Of a stretch of DNA of 13,507 bases, positions 2,889 to 13,507 are shown in pieces. Source of the stretch: a virus; UHGV virus genome UHGV-0166527. One strand, written 5' to 3'. Every line of letters starts with the position of its first letter. Position 1 is the stretch's first letter. A program made the position numbers and the translations under genes. The notes beneath the pieces are model-generated. The model saw only the letters and a list, made by a program, of their open reading frames with translations, was not told the origin of the DNA and ran no database searches.

Positions 2889-3962
2889 TCATTTGTCGAT
2901 TTCAATTTTGTCCCATTCCCGTCCACGGCTGTCCCTATACCGCGCCGCCATTGAATCTGATTTATGCCCGAGAAGACGTTGAGCAAACTTATCGCCAATC
3001 TGGTTCCGGTATAGCCTCGCTGACAGGCTACGCAGTTCATGGAATGTTGGCGGGTTTCCATCAAATGAGAGTCCAGATGCATTTCTCGCCTTTGTAAAAT
3101 ACTTTGATACTGTTTTCGGGGAAAGCGGATCGTGATGCTTTGATGCGATTATAGTTTCACTGCTGCTGGCCTCCCTGCATTTTTGTAGTGTATCAGCCAA
3201 TGAGATATTGAGCGCGTCAATCGTTAGCGTCAGCGGAATGGCGAGCTTAGCCCCTGTTTTACTCTGCTCAATGTGAAGATGGTTGTCGTTTATGTCTGAC
3301 CATTTCATTCTGCACAAATCGCCCACTCTCTGCCCTGTAACGACAGCCAAATCCATTGCCAGCCTCAGCCAGATTGGGAGAGGTTCGGCTGCATGGTAAA
3401 TCGCGACATACTCATTAGCTGTCAGCCTTGAGCGCCTTACTTCTGACTTTGCTGTGCGGGTTGCTGTTACCGGATTCGTTTCCACATGCCCCTCGGCTAT
3501 TGCCTCACGAAAAACGTCAACAAGGGTTGACCTGATTAATTTTGCGGAAGCTGCTTTACCTTCTGCTACGTAGGTGTTTAGCATTGCTGCCACCTCTTTC
3601 GTTGATATGTCATTGAGCGGTTTGTCCGGCAATTTTCTTCGAATCGCCCTGATTTTGCTGGCGTAGTCGAGTAGAGTTTTCGGTCTGATACCCCTCTCGC
3701 TGAGGATTGTTTCATATCGGTCAAGCCACGCATGAAGAGTGATTGCGTCAGCGCCTTTAATCCTGTCTATCAGTGACTCACGCCTGTTCTCGGATAGCAA
3801 CTCAATATTGGCCTGAATAGCCTCTGAAACTGCTATCCTTCTGTCTCTGCCTAATCCGAACTCTTTACCCGTCCTTGGGTCCCTGTAGCAGTAATATCCA
3901 TTGTTTCTTATATAAAGGTTAGGGGGTAAATCCCGGCGCTCATGACTTCGCCTTCTTCCCAT
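2889..3962 (-). CDS. int: Tyrosine integrase, lambda Int family (357 aa)
   Basis: N-terminus MGRRRSHERRDLPPNLYIRNNGYYCYRDPRTGKEFGLGRDRRIA and C-terminus RGREWDKIEI closely match recalled lambda Int; catalytic motifs TGQRVGDL, HELRSL, LLGHKSD, ARYRD present. Confidence 0.95.
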   Translation of the reverse strand: MGRRRSHERRDLPPNLYIRNNGYYCYRDPRTGKEFGLGRDRRIAVSEAIQANIELLSENRRESLIDRIKGADAITLHAWLDRYETILSERGIRPKTLLDYASKIRAIRRKLPDKPLNDISTKEVAAMLNTYVAEGKAASAKLIRSTLVDVFREAIAEGHVETNPVTATRTAKSEVRRSRLTANEYVAIYHAAEPLPIWLRLAMDLAVVTGQRVGDLCRMKWSDINDNHLHIEQSKTGAKLAIPLTLTIDALNISLADTLQKCREASSSETIIASKHHDPLSPKTVSKYFTKARNASGLSFDGNPPTFHELRSLSARLYRNQIGDKFAQRLLGHKSDSMAARYRDSRGREWDKIEIDK

Positions 3963-8477: not shown

Positions 8478-8861
8478 CTAGAAGGGAATTGAATCGTCGT
8501 ATTCAGGATGATTTTGATGATTGCTACTTTGCTGCTGTTGGCTGTTTCCTGAAGTTGCAAATCCAATCTTTGCATTCAGTAATTCAAGATTGATTGATTG
8601 ACCATTTTGCCCCTGATAAACATCAACCCTGATGTTTTCTCCGGTAATTTCAACAATGCCACCTTCAACAAGAACACTACGGTAGTAATCCGCTTGCGCT
8701 CCCGGCTTGGCAAATACAACGGCGCTGTAGTTTGTCCATTCTTTCTTTTTTGTCTGGCGATCGTAATACTGAACGCCAGCACGGATGTTGAATCCGATAT
8801 TTTCCCCGGCCTGAAACTCTCTTGCGGGCTTGTTTAGTCTTACAGTAATCGAATGTGCCAT
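8478..8861 (-). CDS. ssb: Single-stranded DNA-binding protein, phage SSB-like (127 aa)
   Basis: OB-fold-like core and C-terminal acidic tail ending DDSIPF (compare E. coli SSB DDDIPF); ATG at 8859-8861 overlaps erf stop (TAATG). Confidence 0.75.
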   Translation of the reverse strand: MAHSITVRLNKPAREFQAGENIGFNIRAGVQYYDRQTKKKEWTNYSAVVFAKPGAQADYYRSVLVEGGIVEITGENIRVDVYQGQNGQSINLELLNAKIGFATSGNSQQQQSSNHQNHPEYDDSIPF

Positions 8862-9466
8862 TAAGCAGCCGCTCCTTCTAATTCGTCTCGTCTGATGTTG
8901 TAAACGTCCTGCGCTTTGTGCTGCTCCGGTGTGCCTTCGAGCATCTTCCACGCTTTGGCGAACGCCTGTTTAAGCTCTTCTACGGTGTTTTTCTGCATTG
9001 CTGCGTCAGTGAATGCTTTTAGAACCTGTTCAGGCGTAGGTGATGGTTTTGATTGCTTTGCTGCTGCGTTCTGCTGATGTTTATGCTCGTCTGTATCTGC
9101 ATCTTTCGCATCATCAATGCCGAACAAACCATTGAGGCAATACTTGCGTGCATAAGAGCTTGTGGCTCCCGTAACTTGTGCAGAATCCATTCCTTTCTTG
9201 CTTTCTTCCTCTCGTGCAAGAGCGGTTGCTGTATGACTGTTTTCGCCATCAGTAATAGTTGCCGTGGCTTTCACGTAATACCGATCACCAATCAACACAA
9301 CTTCATCGCTGATTGATAAAAACAGACCATTCAGTAACGGCTTAACGCCTTCAAGAATATCTTCGCAGCTTCTGTATTTATATTTACCGAATGAGTTGTA
9401 CTGATTTTTTGGCGCGTTCAGATTCTCCTGAATGGCTGCCAGTCTTGCGTAAAATTCTTTGCTCAT
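8861..9466 (-). CDS. erf: Single-strand annealing protein, ERF family (P22 Erf-like, 201 aa)
   Basis: MSKEFYARLAAIQENLNAPKNQYNSFGKYKYRSCEDILEGVKPLL... closely matches recalled P22 Erf; ATG at 9464-9466. Confidence 0.85.
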   Translation of the reverse strand: MSKEFYARLAAIQENLNAPKNQYNSFGKYKYRSCEDILEGVKPLLNGLFLSISDEVVLIGDRYYVKATATITDGENSHTATALAREEESKKGMDSAQVTGATSSYARKYCLNGLFGIDDAKDADTDEHKHQQNAAAKQSKPSPTPEQVLKAFTDAAMQKNTVEELKQAFAKAWKMLEGTPEQHKAQDVYNIRRDELEGAAA

Positions 9467-9555
9467 ATGTTTGTTCTCAGAATGGACATGGCCCAAGGAA
9501 ATAACGCTGATTTAATACTTCAGTCTTTGCCGCATTTAAAAATACGCGAACACCT

Positions 9556-9726
9556 TCACGATCTCCCTTCTGGCGATACATTAACGCCTGCTGCGTGTAC
9601 ATGCGTCTCTGTAACTTGCTCTCCTTCACTGTGGTTGCAAGTGACATGAATATCTCCTTCGTTACCGATTAAATCTTTCATCTGACGAATGAATTCTTCG
9701 TCTGACCAGTTATCTGTAAAACTCAT
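9556..9726 (-). CDS. Hypothetical small protein (56 aa) in the arf-like position between kil and erf
   Basis: ATG at 9724-9726 overlapping kil stop (ATGA); position analogous to P22 arf but sequence not recognised. Confidence 0.45.
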   Translation of the reverse strand: MSFTDNWSDEEFIRQMKDLIGNEGDIHVTCNHSEGEQVTETHVHAAGVNVSPEGRS

Positions 9727-9875
9727 TTCCTGCGATACCACGGAAGGTTGATAGCTGATTTCATCGCTTTATTTGCTTCAAGCCACATTTTTGAATCACC
9801 AATAAATCTGGCTATTACTGCTTTGTTCTGTGCAGCACGAAGCATCTGGTGATTAATGGCTATTTCATTGCGCAT
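9723..9875 (-). CDS. kil: Kil-like host division inhibitor (50 aa)
   Basis: Hand-translated MRNEIAINHQMLRAAQNKAVIARFIGDSKMWLEANKAMKSAINLPWYRRK; shares the FIGD.KM core with recalled lambda Kil; GGAGG SD upstream; absent from the ORF track (under 60 aa). Confidence 0.6.
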   Translation of the reverse strand: MRNEIAINHQMLRAAQNKAVIARFIGDSKMWLEANKAMKSAINLPWYRRK

Positions 9876-9994
9876 AACGCCTCCAGTTGTTTCTTTGCTG
9901 CTCTGATTAATTGTTTAACTCGGCGTGATAATTCAGATTCGTGCGGGTAGAAAGCGGACATGACGCCGCTACCCGCGAGCTGAAAGTGCATCAT
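9860..9994 (-). CDS. cIII: CIII-like protein (44 aa, FtsH-inhibitor family)
   Basis: MMHFQLAGSGVMSAFYPHESELSRRVKQLIRAAKKQL... resembles the lambda CIII amphipathic core (SESLLERITRKLRDGWKRL); AGGAG SD 6 nt upstream of ATG 9992-9994; overlaps kil start as in lambda. Confidence 0.55.
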   Translation of the reverse strand: MMHFQLAGSGVMSAFYPHESELSRRVKQLIRAAKKQLEALCAMK

Positions 9995-10056: not shown

Positions 10057-10080
10057 GGTAAAGCCGCGCTTGGCGGCTTA
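10057..10080. repeat. Copy 1 of a 23-24 bp intergenic element GGTAAAGCCGCGCTTGGCGGCTTA (contains inverted repeat AAGCCGC/GCGGCTT) overlapping the stop of the 138-aa gene
   Basis: Near-identical to 10517..10540; palindromic core. Confidence 0.6.
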
Positions 10081-10494
10081 TTTGAAGATGTCTATGAAAT
10101 CAAGAACTGATGATATTTCGTGGTTGAACGATTTTCTTTTGTATCTTTCTATCGCAGAATCCACCTGGTGTTTATAGTCATCGTCGTTTGAGTATTTAAC
10201 GAAGCATTCTATTGTCTCAGGCGTTACAGCTATAAGGCTCCACCAACCTTCATCAGATTGATATTCAAATCCCATGCTTTCAAGCCATCCAGCATATTTC
10301 CCTCCAGCATCTTGCCAGTGTGTCTTTTCTGCAAGGAAGCTGTTAACCGTCATATGTGCATCAAGGCATTTATCCAACTGTTTACCATTAAGTAGCCATG
10401 CGCTGACAGTTGCACATCCCAAATCAACTGATTGAGTAGAGATATTGAATTGGTCGTAATTATCTGGATTAACCAGGATATCTGTAATTTCCAT
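10078..10494 (-). CDS. Hypothetical phage protein (138 aa)
   Basis: ATG at 10492-10494 preceded by GGAGGAATT; no recognised family. Confidence 0.6.
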   Translation of the reverse strand: MEITDILVNPDNYDQFNISTQSVDLGCATVSAWLLNGKQLDKCLDAHMTVNSFLAEKTHWQDAGGKYAGWLESMGFEYQSDEGWWSLIAVTPETIECFVKYSNDDDYKHQVDSAIERYKRKSFNHEISSVLDFIDIFK

Positions 10495-10516
10495 AATTCC
10501 TCCGTCATTGGCAGGT

Positions 10517-10540
10517 GTTAAAGCCGCGCTTGGCAGTTAC
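10517..10540. repeat. Copy 2 of the 23-24 bp intergenic element (GTTAAAGCCGCGCTTGGCAGTTAC) overlapping the stop of the 82-aa gene
   Basis: Near-identical to 10057..10080. Confidence 0.6.
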
Positions 10541-10785
10541 TCTATTTCTTCTTCGAATGATTTTATTAGTCGGTCAATAACATCATCTGTTTCAATATCA
10601 TTTCCGTCTGATTGCTTTAATACGTCTATTGATTCTACGGCGGTAAACTCCATCGCTGTGAGAAACTCGACAATTGCACACCCAACGACATATCGTTCTT
10701 CATCTGTACGACATGAGATAAAAGAGCATTTAATTGCTGTTATTACTTTTTGTTTAAGCTCTGCAGGGTAATCAGTTTTTATCAT
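10537..10785 (-). CDS. Hypothetical small acidic protein (82 aa)
   Basis: ATG at 10783-10785 preceded by GGAG 6 nt upstream; acidic C-terminus (DGNDIETDDVIDRLIKSFEEEIE). Confidence 0.6.
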   Translation of the reverse strand: MIKTDYPAELKQKVITAIKCSFISCRTDEERYVVGCAIVEFLTAMEFTAVESIDVLKQSDGNDIETDDVIDRLIKSFEEEIE

Positions 10786-10798
10786 CGTTTACTCCGTC

Positions 10799-10826
10799 AA
10801 AAAAACTGCCCTCACATTGGAGGGCA
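10799..10826 (-). terminator. Intrinsic terminator (minus strand): stem TGCCCTC / loop CAATGT / GAGGGCA followed by seven U
   Basis: 7-bp GC-rich stem; the minus-strand U-tract corresponds to + 10799-10805 (AAAAAAA); lies just upstream of the 82-aa gene RBS. Confidence 0.65.
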
Positions 10827-10942
10827 AAGAAGATTTCCAATAATCAGAACAAGTCGGCTCCTGTTTAGTTACGAGCGACATTGCTCCGTGTATTCACTCG
10901 TTGGAATGAATACACAGTGCAGTGTTTATTCTGTTGTTTATG

Positions 10943-10970
10943 CCAAAAATAAAGGCCGACTATGCGGCCT
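10943..10970 (-). terminator. Intrinsic terminator (minus strand): stem AGGCCG / loop CATAGT / CGGCCT followed by TTATTTTTGG; the loop contains the stop codon of the 207-aa gene
   Basis: 6-bp GC-rich stem plus U-rich tract read on the minus strand; tL1-like position after the N operon proximal genes. Confidence 0.6.
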
Positions 10971-11583
10971 CGGAAGGAAGTCCAATCATCTTATTCAAAT
11001 CTTCTACCCGTAAAGCAGGAAGTGCTGTACTTGCTTTGTCTGCTTCTTTTGGTAGCAATTCTTTGCTTTCAGGCCAAACTTCAATAAGTCGCTTAACTGT
11101 TGTGACTGAGTTCAAAGCAGCCCATACATTTGATTCGATATCCTTTTTCTTGGCTTCAAGTTTTTGTTGCAATGCGCAGATTTCATCAAACCTTTTTGTT
11201 ATTTCGTGTTCTGCGTCAAACATGCATTTATCTTTGGTCGGAGTAGGGAGCAATATATCTTCGCCGTTGCCGTCTTTCCCATATGAATGCCATCCAACCC
11301 TTCTGCCAGATACAGTCAGATAAATCGAAGTAGAACGAACATCGCATGAGTAAAATGAACATCCCATCTTTTCAATTTCTTCACTTATAGCTACTAACCT
11401 GGATGATAACTGATCCACTTCATCAGTTTTCTTTTTACCGCCAAACGCAACAACCCTGGCGTCAAGTGCAAGCTGGTTCTTTAACCTTGTTACTTCTTCA
11501 AGTTCAGTGAAAACCCCAGACTTAATTAAAGCGTTACGAGCGATTTTCTCTTTCATTCTCGTAGTTAAGCGGATTGATGACAT
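10960..11583 (-). CDS. Hypothetical protein (207 aa) immediately downstream of N, upstream of the first terminator
   Basis: ATG at 11581-11583 (MSSIRLTTRMKEKIARNAL...) preceded by GAGAGGAA; soluble, no recognised family; occupies the ral/sieB accessory slot. Confidence 0.65.
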   Translation of the reverse strand: MSSIRLTTRMKEKIARNALIKSGVFTELEEVTRLKNQLALDARVVAFGGKKKTDEVDQLSSRLVAISEEIEKMGCSFYSCDVRSTSIYLTVSGRRVGWHSYGKDGNGEDILLPTPTKDKCMFDAEHEITKRFDEICALQQKLEAKKKDIESNVWAALNSVTTVKRLIEVWPESKELLPKEADKASTALPALRVEDLNKMIGLPSEAA

Positions 11584-11594
11584 ATTAATTCCTC

Positions 11595-11921
11595 TCAAAT
11601 AAGTGGTTTGCTGCCTAATTTCATTTTCTGGCGACCAACACAAGTCACACCCATTTCACTGCGTGGCTTGCTGTACCATGTGCGCTGATTCTTGCGTTCA
11701 ATACGTTGCAGGTTGCTTTCAATCTGTTCGTGGTATTCAGCCAGCACCGTAAGGTCTATCGGATTCAGTGCGCTTTCTACTCGTGATTTCGGTTTGCGAT
11801 TCAGCGAGAGAATAGGGCGGTTAACTGGCTTTGCGCTTACCCCAACCAACAGGGGATTTGCTGCTTTCCATTGAGCCTGTTTCTCTGCGCGACGTTCGCG
11901 GCGGCGTGTTTGTGCATCCAT
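11595..11921 (-). CDS. N: Antitermination protein N (lambda-type, 108 aa)
   Basis: MDAQTRRRERRAEKQAQWKAANPLLVGVSAKPVNRPILSLNRKPKSRVESALNPIDLTVLAEYH... matches recalled lambda N including the arginine-rich motif; AGGAGA SD upstream of ATG 11919-11921. Confidence 0.9.
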   Translation of the reverse strand: MDAQTRRRERRAEKQAQWKAANPLLVGVSAKPVNRPILSLNRKPKSRVESALNPIDLTVLAEYHEQIESNLQRIERKNQRTWYSKPRSEMGVTCVGRQKMKLGSKPLI

Positions 11922-12078
11922 CTGGATTCTCCTGTCAGTTAGCTTTGGTTGTGTGTGGGAGTCGTAGTCCTGAACGAAAACACCCCGCAATGGCACATTG
12001 GCAGCTAATCCGGATTCGCACTTCCGGCCAATGCTTCGTTTCGTATCACACACACCAAAGCCTTCTGCTTTGAATGCT

Positions 12079-12272: not shown

Positions 12273-13507
<1,235 letters not shown>

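What the first reader, a model, noticed from the sequence alone, without database searches (positions are those of the whole stretch)
10078..10785. Two unknown proteins (82-aa acidic, 138-aa) in the N-to-cIII accessory slot
Between the terminators and cIII, where lambda carries ral/sieB/ea10, there are two well-supported ORFs of unrecognised family. The 82-aa product has a strongly acidic C-terminal half, a property shared by DNA-mimic anti-restriction proteins; that is only a compositional hint. Both have strong SD sequences.
Basis: inference. Interest (0 to 1): 0.45.

Follow-up and report, generated by a model that had tools for sequence, protein, structure and literature searches.

The report
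Two uncharacterised lambdoid early accessory genes
Two real but uncharacterised small acidic phage genes sit as independent swappable cassettes in the early-left operon of a lambda-like prophage; the database label "anti-restriction" on the smaller one traces to a mislabelled GenBank record, so its function is still open.

Summary
On the minus strand, an 82-aa ORF (10537-10785) and a 138-aa ORF (10078-10494) lie between two intrinsic terminators and cIII in the N-dependent pL operon of a lambdoid prophage integrated next to torS. Both have good Shine-Dalgarno sites, low GC and purifying selection.

They are independent cassettes, not a pair:
- Each usually occurs alone in related prophages.
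- Each is rare in complete E. coli genomes (58 and 37 of 5426).
- The tandem arrangement is seen in 1 of 5426 genomes.

ORF82 (phrog_14587) is a confident four-helix bundle (pLDDT 90.6). Its net charge is -10; the family median is -15. It also opens an early operon in virulent Skate-like phages.

It is not Ral (hhalign probability 0.1%). It often sits beside an intact Ral. It matches no known anti-restriction family or fold. The PHROG label "anti-restriction" probably comes from the ECP1 record, whose labels are shifted.

ORF138 (phrog_8967) belongs to a phage-only family with a Trp-rich motif, also found in rV5-like myophages. It has no Pfam, PDB or fold match.

Best guess, inferred only: both are early proteins that bind host proteins, possibly for counter-defence. 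The finding is ordinary, with modest interest.

The parts
10537..10785 (-). ORF82: an 82-aa acidic four-helix-bundle protein, family phrog_14587 (same as HK446 gp36).
   Evidence: ORF and translation. phrog_14587 match 3.5e-47, full length. 97.6% identical in HK446, ECP1 and Kapi1. AlphaFold pLDDT 90.6 with helices 7-21, 28-44, 49-59 and 64-81. Net charge -10. dN/dS 0.17 against HK446.
10078..10494 (-). ORF138: a 138-aa acidic protein, family phrog_8967, with the conserved motif DWGGxYAxWLxxxGIxxxTDNGWWSxxAVxPxNIxxF.
   Evidence: ORF. phrog_8967 match 1.3e-86. 63-66% identical in rV5-like myophages. 62 representative clusters at E<=1e-3. Motif read from alignment A5. dN/dS 0.08-0.26. AlphaFold pLDDT 70.9.
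10792..10795 (-). Shine-Dalgarno GGAG of ORF82, inside the joint sequence GACGGAG that both cassettes share.
   Evidence: Read directly from the sequence. The same GACGGAG joint abuts the terminator in front of ORF138 in prophage L002.
10499..10503 (-). Shine-Dalgarno GGAGG of ORF138.
   Evidence: Read directly from the sequence.
10799..10827 (-). Intrinsic terminator (8-bp stem, then T7) immediately upstream of ORF82.
   Evidence: Terminator scan. Conserved in HK446 and in E. coli prophages.
10944..10971 (-). Intrinsic terminator just after the Nmad5-domain gene.
   Evidence: Terminator scan.
10061..10079 (-). Hairpin AAGCCGC-GCTTG-GCGGCTT between ORF138 and cIII. It overlaps the ORF138 stop codon and has no T-run. 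It is a conserved boundary of the cIII upstream region.
   Evidence: Present at the same place next to cIII in HK446 and in three E. coli prophages, whichever gene lies upstream.
10521..10535 (-). Partial second copy of the same hairpin sequence (AAGCCGCGCTTGGCA) between ORF82 and ORF138. With the full copy it forms the direct repeat that brackets the ORF138 cassette.
   Evidence: ORF138 is absent from HK446, where the ORF82 stop abuts the single hairpin.
9860..9994 (-). cIII, the downstream neighbour that defines the slot. This is the 44-aa reading used by RefSeq; the mechanical ORF runs to 10045.
   Evidence: PF08134 match 4.6e-30. RefSeq annotation of the same gene in L004.

Best explanation
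SHOWN:
- The interval holds two genuine protein-coding genes on the minus strand.
- They sit in the delayed-early pL operon of a lambdoid prophage, downstream of N and of two intrinsic terminators, and directly upstream of cIII and kil.
- They are two independent, horizontally exchanged cassettes, not a functional pair. Each is usually found alone in the same slot.
- Each is bounded by the same short joints: the GACGGAG ribosome-binding joint at the 5' end and an AAGCCGCGC hairpin at the 3' end.
- Each is AT-rich relative to the phage.
- Each has relatives in strictly virulent phages: Skate-like siphophages for ORF82 and rV5-like myophages for ORF138.
- ORF82 is a compact, very acidic four-helix bundle. 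It is not Ral and not a member of any known anti-restriction family.
- ORF138 belongs to a phage-only family with a Trp-rich conserved core and no recognisable fold.

INFERRED:
- Both are made early, only after N antitermination.
- Both act by binding a host protein rather than by catalysis.
- ORF82 most likely works as a stoichiometric inhibitor. Its acidic surface would occupy the basic DNA-binding surface of a host nuclease or other DNA-binding protein. The conserved stripe on helix 4 is D67 and D71, plus E75 and E76 in most relatives. That makes it a counter-defence or host-takeover factor; the target is unknown and need not be a type I restriction enzyme.
- ORF138 is more loosely assigned to the same broad class. 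It is an early gene linked to the DNA-metabolism and recombination region.
For: Position and expression signals.

Independence of the two cassettes:
- HK446, ECP1 and Kapi1 have ORF82 without ORF138.
- E. coli prophages have ORF138 alone, or with the DUF2528 protein plus Ral.
- One of 28 ORF82 viral loci and one of 24 lambdoid ORF138 viral loci (the same contig) carry both genes.
- In 5426 E. coli genomes, 58 carry ORF82, 37 carry ORF138, and 1 carries the tandem.

Shared joints. GC of 35.3% and 38.8% against 45.3% for the prophage part.

Real genes.

ORF82:
- Fold and charge.
- Conserved residues.
- First gene of an early operon (with a ParB-like gene, and in one phage a DNA methyltransferase) in Skate-like phages.
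- Same N-to-cIII position in diverged lambdoids at 52-63% identity.
- Retained in all of about 70 sequenced genome-reduced seszw clones, although 53 of 81 genes were removable: and PMC9825161.

ORF138:
- Lies among early small genes in rV5-like Bas58.
- Lies next to YqaJ/RecT/RtcB/DnaB or dCMP deaminase in distant relatives.

Neither protein matches a defence-system model.
Against: - No experiment bears on the function of either protein.
- No paper or supplement I searched mentions them.
- Retention of the ORF82 homologue in every reduced seszw genome could instead mean a role in the phage's own development.
- Neither gene occurs in plasmid anti-defence leading regions.
Confidence: 0.4

Rival explanations
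1. One reading: ORF82 is an Ocr/ArdA-like DNA mimic that blocks type I restriction-modification enzymes.
For: - The family is very acidic: net charge -10 to -20 in 76-90 aa.
- It is expressed early and is the first gene of an early operon in Skate-like phages, as gene 0.3 (ocr) is in T7 (the T7 comparison is from established knowledge).
- A DNA methyltransferase sits in the same operon in one Klebsiella phage.
- PHROG and RefSeq label the family 'anti-restriction protein'.
Against: - The label traces to a GenBank record with shifted product names, so it is not evidence.
- ORF82 shows no similarity to Ral or to any anti-restriction Pfam family.
- It coexists with an intact Ral in 8 of 28 loci.
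- It is absent from conjugative-plasmid leading regions, where type I inhibitors are common.
Confidence: 0.12
2. ORF82, and possibly ORF138, serve the phage's own early programme rather than attacking host immunity. Examples would be a regulator or chaperone of transcription, replication or recombination proteins.
For: - The ORF82 homologue is kept intact in all of about 70 genome-reduced seszw clones, down to 36 kb, although 65% of the genes were removable.
- In Skate-like phages it heads an operon with a ParB-like DNA-binding protein and a RusA-like resolvase.
- ORF138 relatives lie beside recombination and replication genes.
Against: - Both genes are rare and patchy among otherwise near-identical lambdoid prophages.
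- About 164 Skate-like phages share the coat gene but only 96-114 have the ORF82 homologue. That pattern marks a dispensable accessory gene, not a core function.
- Retention in seszw may simply reflect lack of an effective guide RNA. The paper's gene table was not available.
Confidence: 0.28
3. They are prophage-encoded defence or superinfection-exclusion genes, as sieB and rex are in lambda.
For: The slot and its neighbours in lambdoid phages do hold exclusion genes such as sieB (established knowledge). The low GC is moron-like.
Against: - They lie downstream of two intrinsic terminators in the pL operon.
- The number of promoter-like sites is no higher than in shuffled sequence, so they should be silent in a lysogen.
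- Homologues occur in strictly virulent phages.
- No PADLOC defence model matches.
Confidence: 0.07
4. ORF82 is a colicin-immunity-like (Im7/Im9-type) inhibitor of an HNH/DNase-type nuclease.
For: - The family profile gives a weak local hit to the colicin E7 immunity protein, E 0.036-0.2. It covers the acidic helix II of Im7 (ATDDVLDVLLEHF against ETDDVIDRLIKSF).
- Both are acidic four-helix proteins of about 85 aa (Im7 from established knowledge).
Against: - hhalign probability is only 12%.
- The match is out of register: helices 3-4 of ORF82 align to helices I-II of Im7.
- None of the 23 family members hits the Pfam immunity family.
Confidence: 0.05

Closest known systems
Lambda Ral (restriction alleviation protein)
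   Same: Small early protein in the same N-to-cIII accessory region of lambdoid pL operons.
   Different: No sequence relationship (hhalign probability 0.1%). Ral is a 66-aa, Cys-rich, non-acidic protein. Ral and ORF82 occur side by side in 8 of 28 loci.
T7 Ocr and plasmid/phage ArdA (DNA-mimic type I R-M inhibitors)
   Same: Small, very acidic, helical, and expressed first.
   Different: No sequence or fold match. ORF82 is a single 82-aa four-helix bundle. It is not found on plasmids. No activity has been tested.
Colicin DNase immunity proteins (Im7/Im9)
   Same: Acidic four-helix proteins of about 85 aa that inhibit a nuclease by direct binding. There is a weak local sequence resemblance in one acidic helix.
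   Different: The resemblance is not significant (probability 12%) and is out of register. There is no Pfam match.
Lambda Ea10 (DUF2528 in RefSeq) and other pL-operon accessory cassettes
   Same: ORF138 occupies the position next to cIII. It can sit directly beside the DUF2528 protein, shares the same cassette-style joints, and is equally uncharacterised.
   Different: No homology (hhalign probability 1.5%). The ORF138 family extends to virulent rV5-like and other large phages.
PHROG families phrog_14587 and phrog_8967
   Same: Full-length, highly significant membership.
   Different: These are clusters, not functional families. The 'anti-restriction' label of phrog_14587 has no traceable experimental basis, and phrog_8967 has no label.

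Membership tests
Ral family (antirestriction Ral) | Sequence homology to lambda Ral. | tested here: not met
   hhalign of the ORF82 family against a RefSeq-annotated Ral gave probability 0.1%. No Pfam hit at E<=1.
Ral family (antirestriction Ral) | Occupies the Ral position as the only such gene (functional replacement). | tested here: not met
   An intact Ral (97-100% identity over 66 aa) lies about 180 bp upstream of ORF82 in 8 of 28 IMG/VR loci.
Ocr / ArdA / ArdB-KlcA anti-restriction proteins | Sequence or fold membership. | tested here: not met
Ocr / ArdA / ArdB-KlcA anti-restriction proteins | Strongly negative surface charge. | tested here: met
   Net charge -10 (pI 4.3). Family median -15, range -10 to -20.
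Ocr / ArdA / ArdB-KlcA anti-restriction proteins | Inhibits type I R-M enzymes in vivo or in vitro. | not testable with these tools
   Needs plating assays or biochemistry. No published test was found.
Colicin/pyocin DNase immunity proteins (Im7/Im9) | Significant full-length homology. | tested here: not met
   PDB profile hit at E 0.036-0.2, local and out of register. hhalign probability 12%. None of 23 members hits the Pfam family.
phrog_14587 | Full-length profile match. | tested here: met
   3.5e-47, residues 1-82 of 82.
phrog_8967 | Full-length profile match. | tested here: met
   1.3e-86, residues 1-138 of 138. All 50 distant relatives scanned also match.
DUF2528 (lambda Ea10 position) | Homology of ORF138 to the neighbouring-slot protein. 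| tested here: not met
   hhalign probability 1.5%.
Lambdoid pL-operon accessory cassette (N-dependent delayed-early gene) | Lies between N with its tL terminators and cIII, on the same strand, with its own SD and no promoter of its own. | tested here: met
   The same layout is seen in HK446 and in many prophages.
Lambdoid pL-operon accessory cassette (N-dependent delayed-early gene) | Expressed only after N antitermination. | not testable with these tools
   Inferred from the terminators and the lack of a promoter. Needs transcript data.
Known anti-phage defence systems (PADLOC) | Match to a defence-protein model. | tested here: not met
   No hits at E<=1 for either protein.

The most novel reading that the evidence does not exclude
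ORF82 may define a new family of small acidic four-helix-bundle inhibitors of a host nuclease or defence system. The family would be shared by temperate lambdoid phages and virulent Skate-like siphophages of Enterobacteriaceae, and would be mechanistically distinct from Ral, Ocr and ArdA. ORF138 may define a second, widespread, phage-only counter-defence or RecBCD/recombination-modulating family, marked by the DWGGxYAxWL...GWWS motif.
Probability: 0.3. Interest if true: 0.55.

Novelty: new member of a known kind. Interest (0 to 1): 0.3.

Why it matters
If either protein proves to be an inhibitor of a host defence or repair complex, it would add a new anti-defence family. It would come with ready-made natural controls: near-isogenic prophages with and without each cassette, and homologues in virulent therapeutic-type phages (Skate-like Salmonella phages and rV5-like coliphages).

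The practical result today is a warning. 'Anti-restriction protein' is now written on this family in RefSeq and Pharokka-style annotations of many phage genomes. That label appears to rest on a single mislabelled record and should not be used as evidence.

Tried and rejected
**Database and homology searches**
- Pfam, NCBIfam and PADLOC scans of both proteins found nothing meaningful.
- PDB sequence searches with single sequences and with profiles found only a sub-threshold Im7 hit for ORF82 and noise for ORF138. Follow-up with hhalign gave probability 12%, so I rejected Im7 membership.
- ORF82 against Ral and ORF138 against DUF2528: unrelated.

**Fold searches**
- BFVD returned only ORF82's own homologues and one structural paralogue.

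**Plasmid search**
- I tested for presence in anti-defence leading regions. Both genes are essentially absent.

**Literature**
- No mention by accession or PHROG id.
- No match to sequence motifs in the supplements of the accessory-gene screen PMC12373910.
- The HK446 study (bioRxiv 10.64898/2026.07.10.737580) deals with gp33 and gp27, not gp36.
- The BASEL paper reports Skatevirus isolates as markedly RM-sensitive. I could not find those isolates among the phages that carry the ORF82 homologue, so this gives no test.

**Other attempts**
- The seszw gene-removability table was not available. I used retention counts instead.
- A scan of viral contigs with the deep ORF138 alignment failed because no stretch was conserved enough. 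It was redone with close relatives.
- The idea that the two genes form a functional pair was rejected on their co-occurrence.
- Spurious plus-strand ORFs overlapping the interval (10508-10771, 10258-10395, 10274-10435) were dismissed. All homology and conservation lie on the minus strand.

Full report
**Setting**

The window is the left arm of a lambdoid prophage integrated beside torS (50-2794). The integrase gene is at 2889-3962. On the minus strand the early-left operon reads:
- a cI-type repressor (12674-13306);
- a lambda-type N (11595-12053);
- a 227-aa Nmad5-domain protein (10960-11643, PF18757, 1.2e-69);
- ORF82;
- ORF138;
- cIII (PF08134, 4.6e-30);
- kil (PF06301);
- a 56-aa gp33-like gene;
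- Erf.

**The observation**

Each has a good ribosome-binding site: GGAG 6 nt before the ATG of ORF82 and GGAGG 4 nt before that of ORF138. Two minus-strand intrinsic terminators precede ORF82, at 10971-10952 and 10827-10806, the second followed by seven T. Promoter-like sites in the region are no more frequent than in shuffled sequence. I therefore infer that the genes are read from pL only after N antitermination.

ORF82 has net charge -10 (pI 4.3), all of it in the C-terminal half. ORF138 has net charge -12.

**They are real genes**

- Both match PHROG profiles end to end: phrog_14587 at 3.5e-47 and phrog_8967 at 1.3e-86.
- dN/dS is 0.17 for ORF82 against HK446. For ORF138 it is 0.08-0.26 wherever dS is not saturated.
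- Relatives at 40-66% identity exist in unrelated virulent phages.
- ORF82 folds with high confidence: pLDDT 90.6, pTM 0.79, four helices at 7-21, 28-44, 49-59 and 64-81.

**They are independent cassettes**

HK446, ECP1 and Kapi1 carry ORF82 at 97.6% identity, directly upstream of cIII and without ORF138. E. coli prophages carry ORF138 alone, or with the DUF2528 protein plus Ral.

| Sample | ORF82 | ORF138 | Both in tandem |
|---|---|---|---|
| IMG/VR lambdoid loci | 28 | 24 | 1 (the same contig) |
| Complete E. coli genomes (of 5426) | 58 | 37 | 1 |

Sources are for the viral loci, and for the genomes. The exact protein pair does recur on about 115 contigs, including Salmonella, with adjacent accession numbers. 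I read that as spread of one arrangement.

The joints are visible in the sequence. Both genes are preceded by GACGGAG. In prophage L002 that joint fuses ORF138 directly to the terminator. The hairpin AAGCCGC-GCTTG-GCGGCTT (10061-10079) is a fixed feature of the cIII upstream region, whichever gene precedes it. A partial second copy (10521-10535) lies between ORF82 and ORF138, so ORF138 is bracketed by a direct repeat. GC content is 35.3% for ORF82 and 38.8% for ORF138, against 45.3% for the prophage part. This is the ordinary mosaic, moron-like behaviour of this slot.

**ORF82: what it is not**

It does not survive inspection:
- The original HK446 record says 'hypothetical protein', and so do all NCBI cluster members.
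- The only primary record with a functional name is ECP1, which calls ORF82 'antirestriction protein ral'.
- In that record the true cIII and kil are 'hypothetical'. The gp33-like gene is 'cIII protein'. A 28-aa Ral remnant lies just upstream. The product names are shifted.
- The ORF82 family profile has no similarity to Ral (hhalign probability 0.1%).
- An intact Ral lies beside ORF82 in 8 of 28 viral loci.
- No Pfam, NCBIfam or PDB sequence match links ORF82 to Ocr, ArdA, KlcA or any other family.
- In BFVD only its own homologues and one 74-aa structural paralogue in phage SeSz-2 match.
- A weak profile hit to the colicin E7 immunity protein is interesting as an analogy. That protein is also an acidic four-helix nuclease inhibitor of about 85 aa. 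The hit is E 0.036-0.2 over its acidic helix II, but it is out of register and not significant (hhalign 12%).

**ORF82: what can be said**

- The family is small and restricted to phages of Enterobacteriaceae.
- It is uniformly very acidic, with median net charge -15 in about 86 aa.
- Conserved polar residues include D5, K11, K13, C20, S21, C25, E40, E51, D67 and D71. With E75 and E76 in most members, helix 4 carries an acidic stripe next to its hydrophobic face.
- In lambdoids diverged to 52-63% identity it keeps its place between the repressor/N region and the cIII/kil-type early genes.
- In virulent Skate-like phages of Salmonella, E. coli and Klebsiella it is the first gene of a short early operon. 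A ParB-like gene follows, and in one phage a DNA methyltransferase.
- It is essentially absent from plasmids.
- All of about 70 sequenced genome-reduced clones of phage seszw, down to 36 kb, keep it, although 53 of 81 genes were removable. Yet many Skate-like phages with a similar coat gene lack it (164 against 96-114 records).

Together these points fit an early, non-enzymatic protein that binds another protein. They do not identify the partner.

**ORF138**

- A full HMMER scan of 1.8 billion representatives found 62 clusters at E<=1e-3.
- The clusters share an N-terminal I-x-(V/I)-(T/N)-P-x-N-(H/Y) element and the core DWGGxYAxWLxxxGIxxxTDNGWWSxxAVxPxNIxxF. Y67, L71 and W84 are invariant.
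- None hits Pfam, and all fall in phrog_8967, which has no assigned function.
- The family is phage-only.
- It occurs in rV5-like myophages among long runs of small early genes.
- In lambdoid pL operons it sits at the head of the cIII/kil/recombination block, often together with Ral (11 of 24 loci).
- In a 113-kb phage it lies near YqaJ, RecT, RtcB and DnaB, and elsewhere next to a dCMP deaminase.
- It is unrelated to DUF2528.

**Mechanism, with the steps marked**

Shown:
- gene reality;
- operon position;
- independence of the two cassettes;
- the fold and charge of ORF82;
- non-membership in Ral and the other known anti-restriction families.

Inferred:
- N-dependent early expression;
- action by stoichiometric binding of a host protein, most plausibly a DNA-binding enzyme for ORF82.

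I put about 0.4 on this general early host-protein-binding or counter-defence reading. I put about 0.12 on the specific type I R-M target and about 0.28 on a phage-internal role. Prophage defence and Im-like inhibition each get less than 0.1.

**Verdict**

This is an ordinary feature of lambdoid genomes. Two rare, mobile, uncharacterised accessory genes happen to be stacked in one slot. Its modest interest lies in ORF82 as a well-folded, extremely acidic candidate inhibitor shared with virulent phages. It also lies in the finding that the family's circulating 'anti-restriction' annotation has no sound basis.

Noticed in passing
window 9477-9647 (-): This 56-aa ORF (phrog_1723, labelled 'recombinase') is the HK446/HK75 gp33 homologue. 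A 2026 preprint reports gp33 as sufficient to trigger the OLD abortive-infection nuclease and proposes it as a new RecBCD inhibitor (bioRxiv 10.64898/2026.07.10.737580).
   Followed up: partly
window 10960-11643 (-): A 227-aa Nmad5 ('nucleotide modification associated domain 5', PF18757, 1.2e-69) protein is encoded directly after N. Its mechanical ORF overlaps the 3' end of N, and it is followed by two intrinsic terminators. It is present in only some related prophages.
   Followed up: partly
window 10061-10079, 10521-10535, 10792-10798 and 10499-10505: Short conserved joints bound the cassettes: the GACGGAG SD joint in front of both genes and an AAGCCGCGC hairpin behind both. In other prophages the same joints connect ORF138 directly to the terminator or to the DUF2528 gene. 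These look like recombination joints of lambdoid mosaicism.
   Followed up: yes
L050 (GenBank KY979108.1, phage ECP1) 1157-2350: Product names in this record are shifted relative to the genes. ORF82 is 'antirestriction protein ral' and a gp33-like gene is 'cIII protein', while the true cIII and kil are 'hypothetical'. This is the probable source of the 'anti-restriction' label on phrog_14587.
   Followed up: yes
L008 (Salmonella phage seszw) 2983-3261 and about 70 derived records: Every sequenced genome-reduced seszw clone keeps the ORF82 homologue (70 records at >=99% DNA identity, against 72 for the coat gene). Several of the smallest genomes carry one to three extra amino-acid changes in it (PMC9825161).
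   Followed up: partly
BFVD entry A0A411BGY7 (Salmonella phage SeSz-2): A second 74-aa protein with the same four-helix fold (TM 0.80-0.88, 25% identity) exists in a Skate-like phage that also carries the ORF82 homologue. It may be a paralogue.
   Followed up: no
L036 6001-6247: In one IMG/VR prophage the ORF82 homologue is disrupted. The first reading frame stops after 28 codons, and the tblastn match at 84% identity starts 28 nt in.
   Followed up: no
window 8478-8951 (-): This 157-aa ORF, just downstream of Erf in the operon and overlapping its 3' end, ends in ...PEYDDSIPF. That resembles the acidic C-terminal tip of bacterial SSB, which recruits partner proteins (the SSB comparison is from general knowledge).
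   Followed up: no
window 12273-12749 (-): This 158-aa ORF lies in the cI-to-N slot, where lambda has rexAB. It has an internal signal-peptide-like stretch ([20 protein letters not shown]). It is a candidate lysogen-expressed moron, and no PADLOC model matches it.
   Followed up: partly
L080 6001-6996 (113-kb metagenomic phage): A 331-aa protein fuses an ORF138-like N-terminal domain to an unknown acidic C-terminal domain of about 190 aa. It lies between YqaJ/RecT and an RtcB RNA ligase gene.
   Followed up: no
H146 (CP057073.1, PLSDB 'plasmid', 137,565 bp): The only 'plasmid' carrying an ORF138 relative has the size of an rV5-like phage genome and the same 64% identity to ORF138 as those phages.
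   Followed up: no
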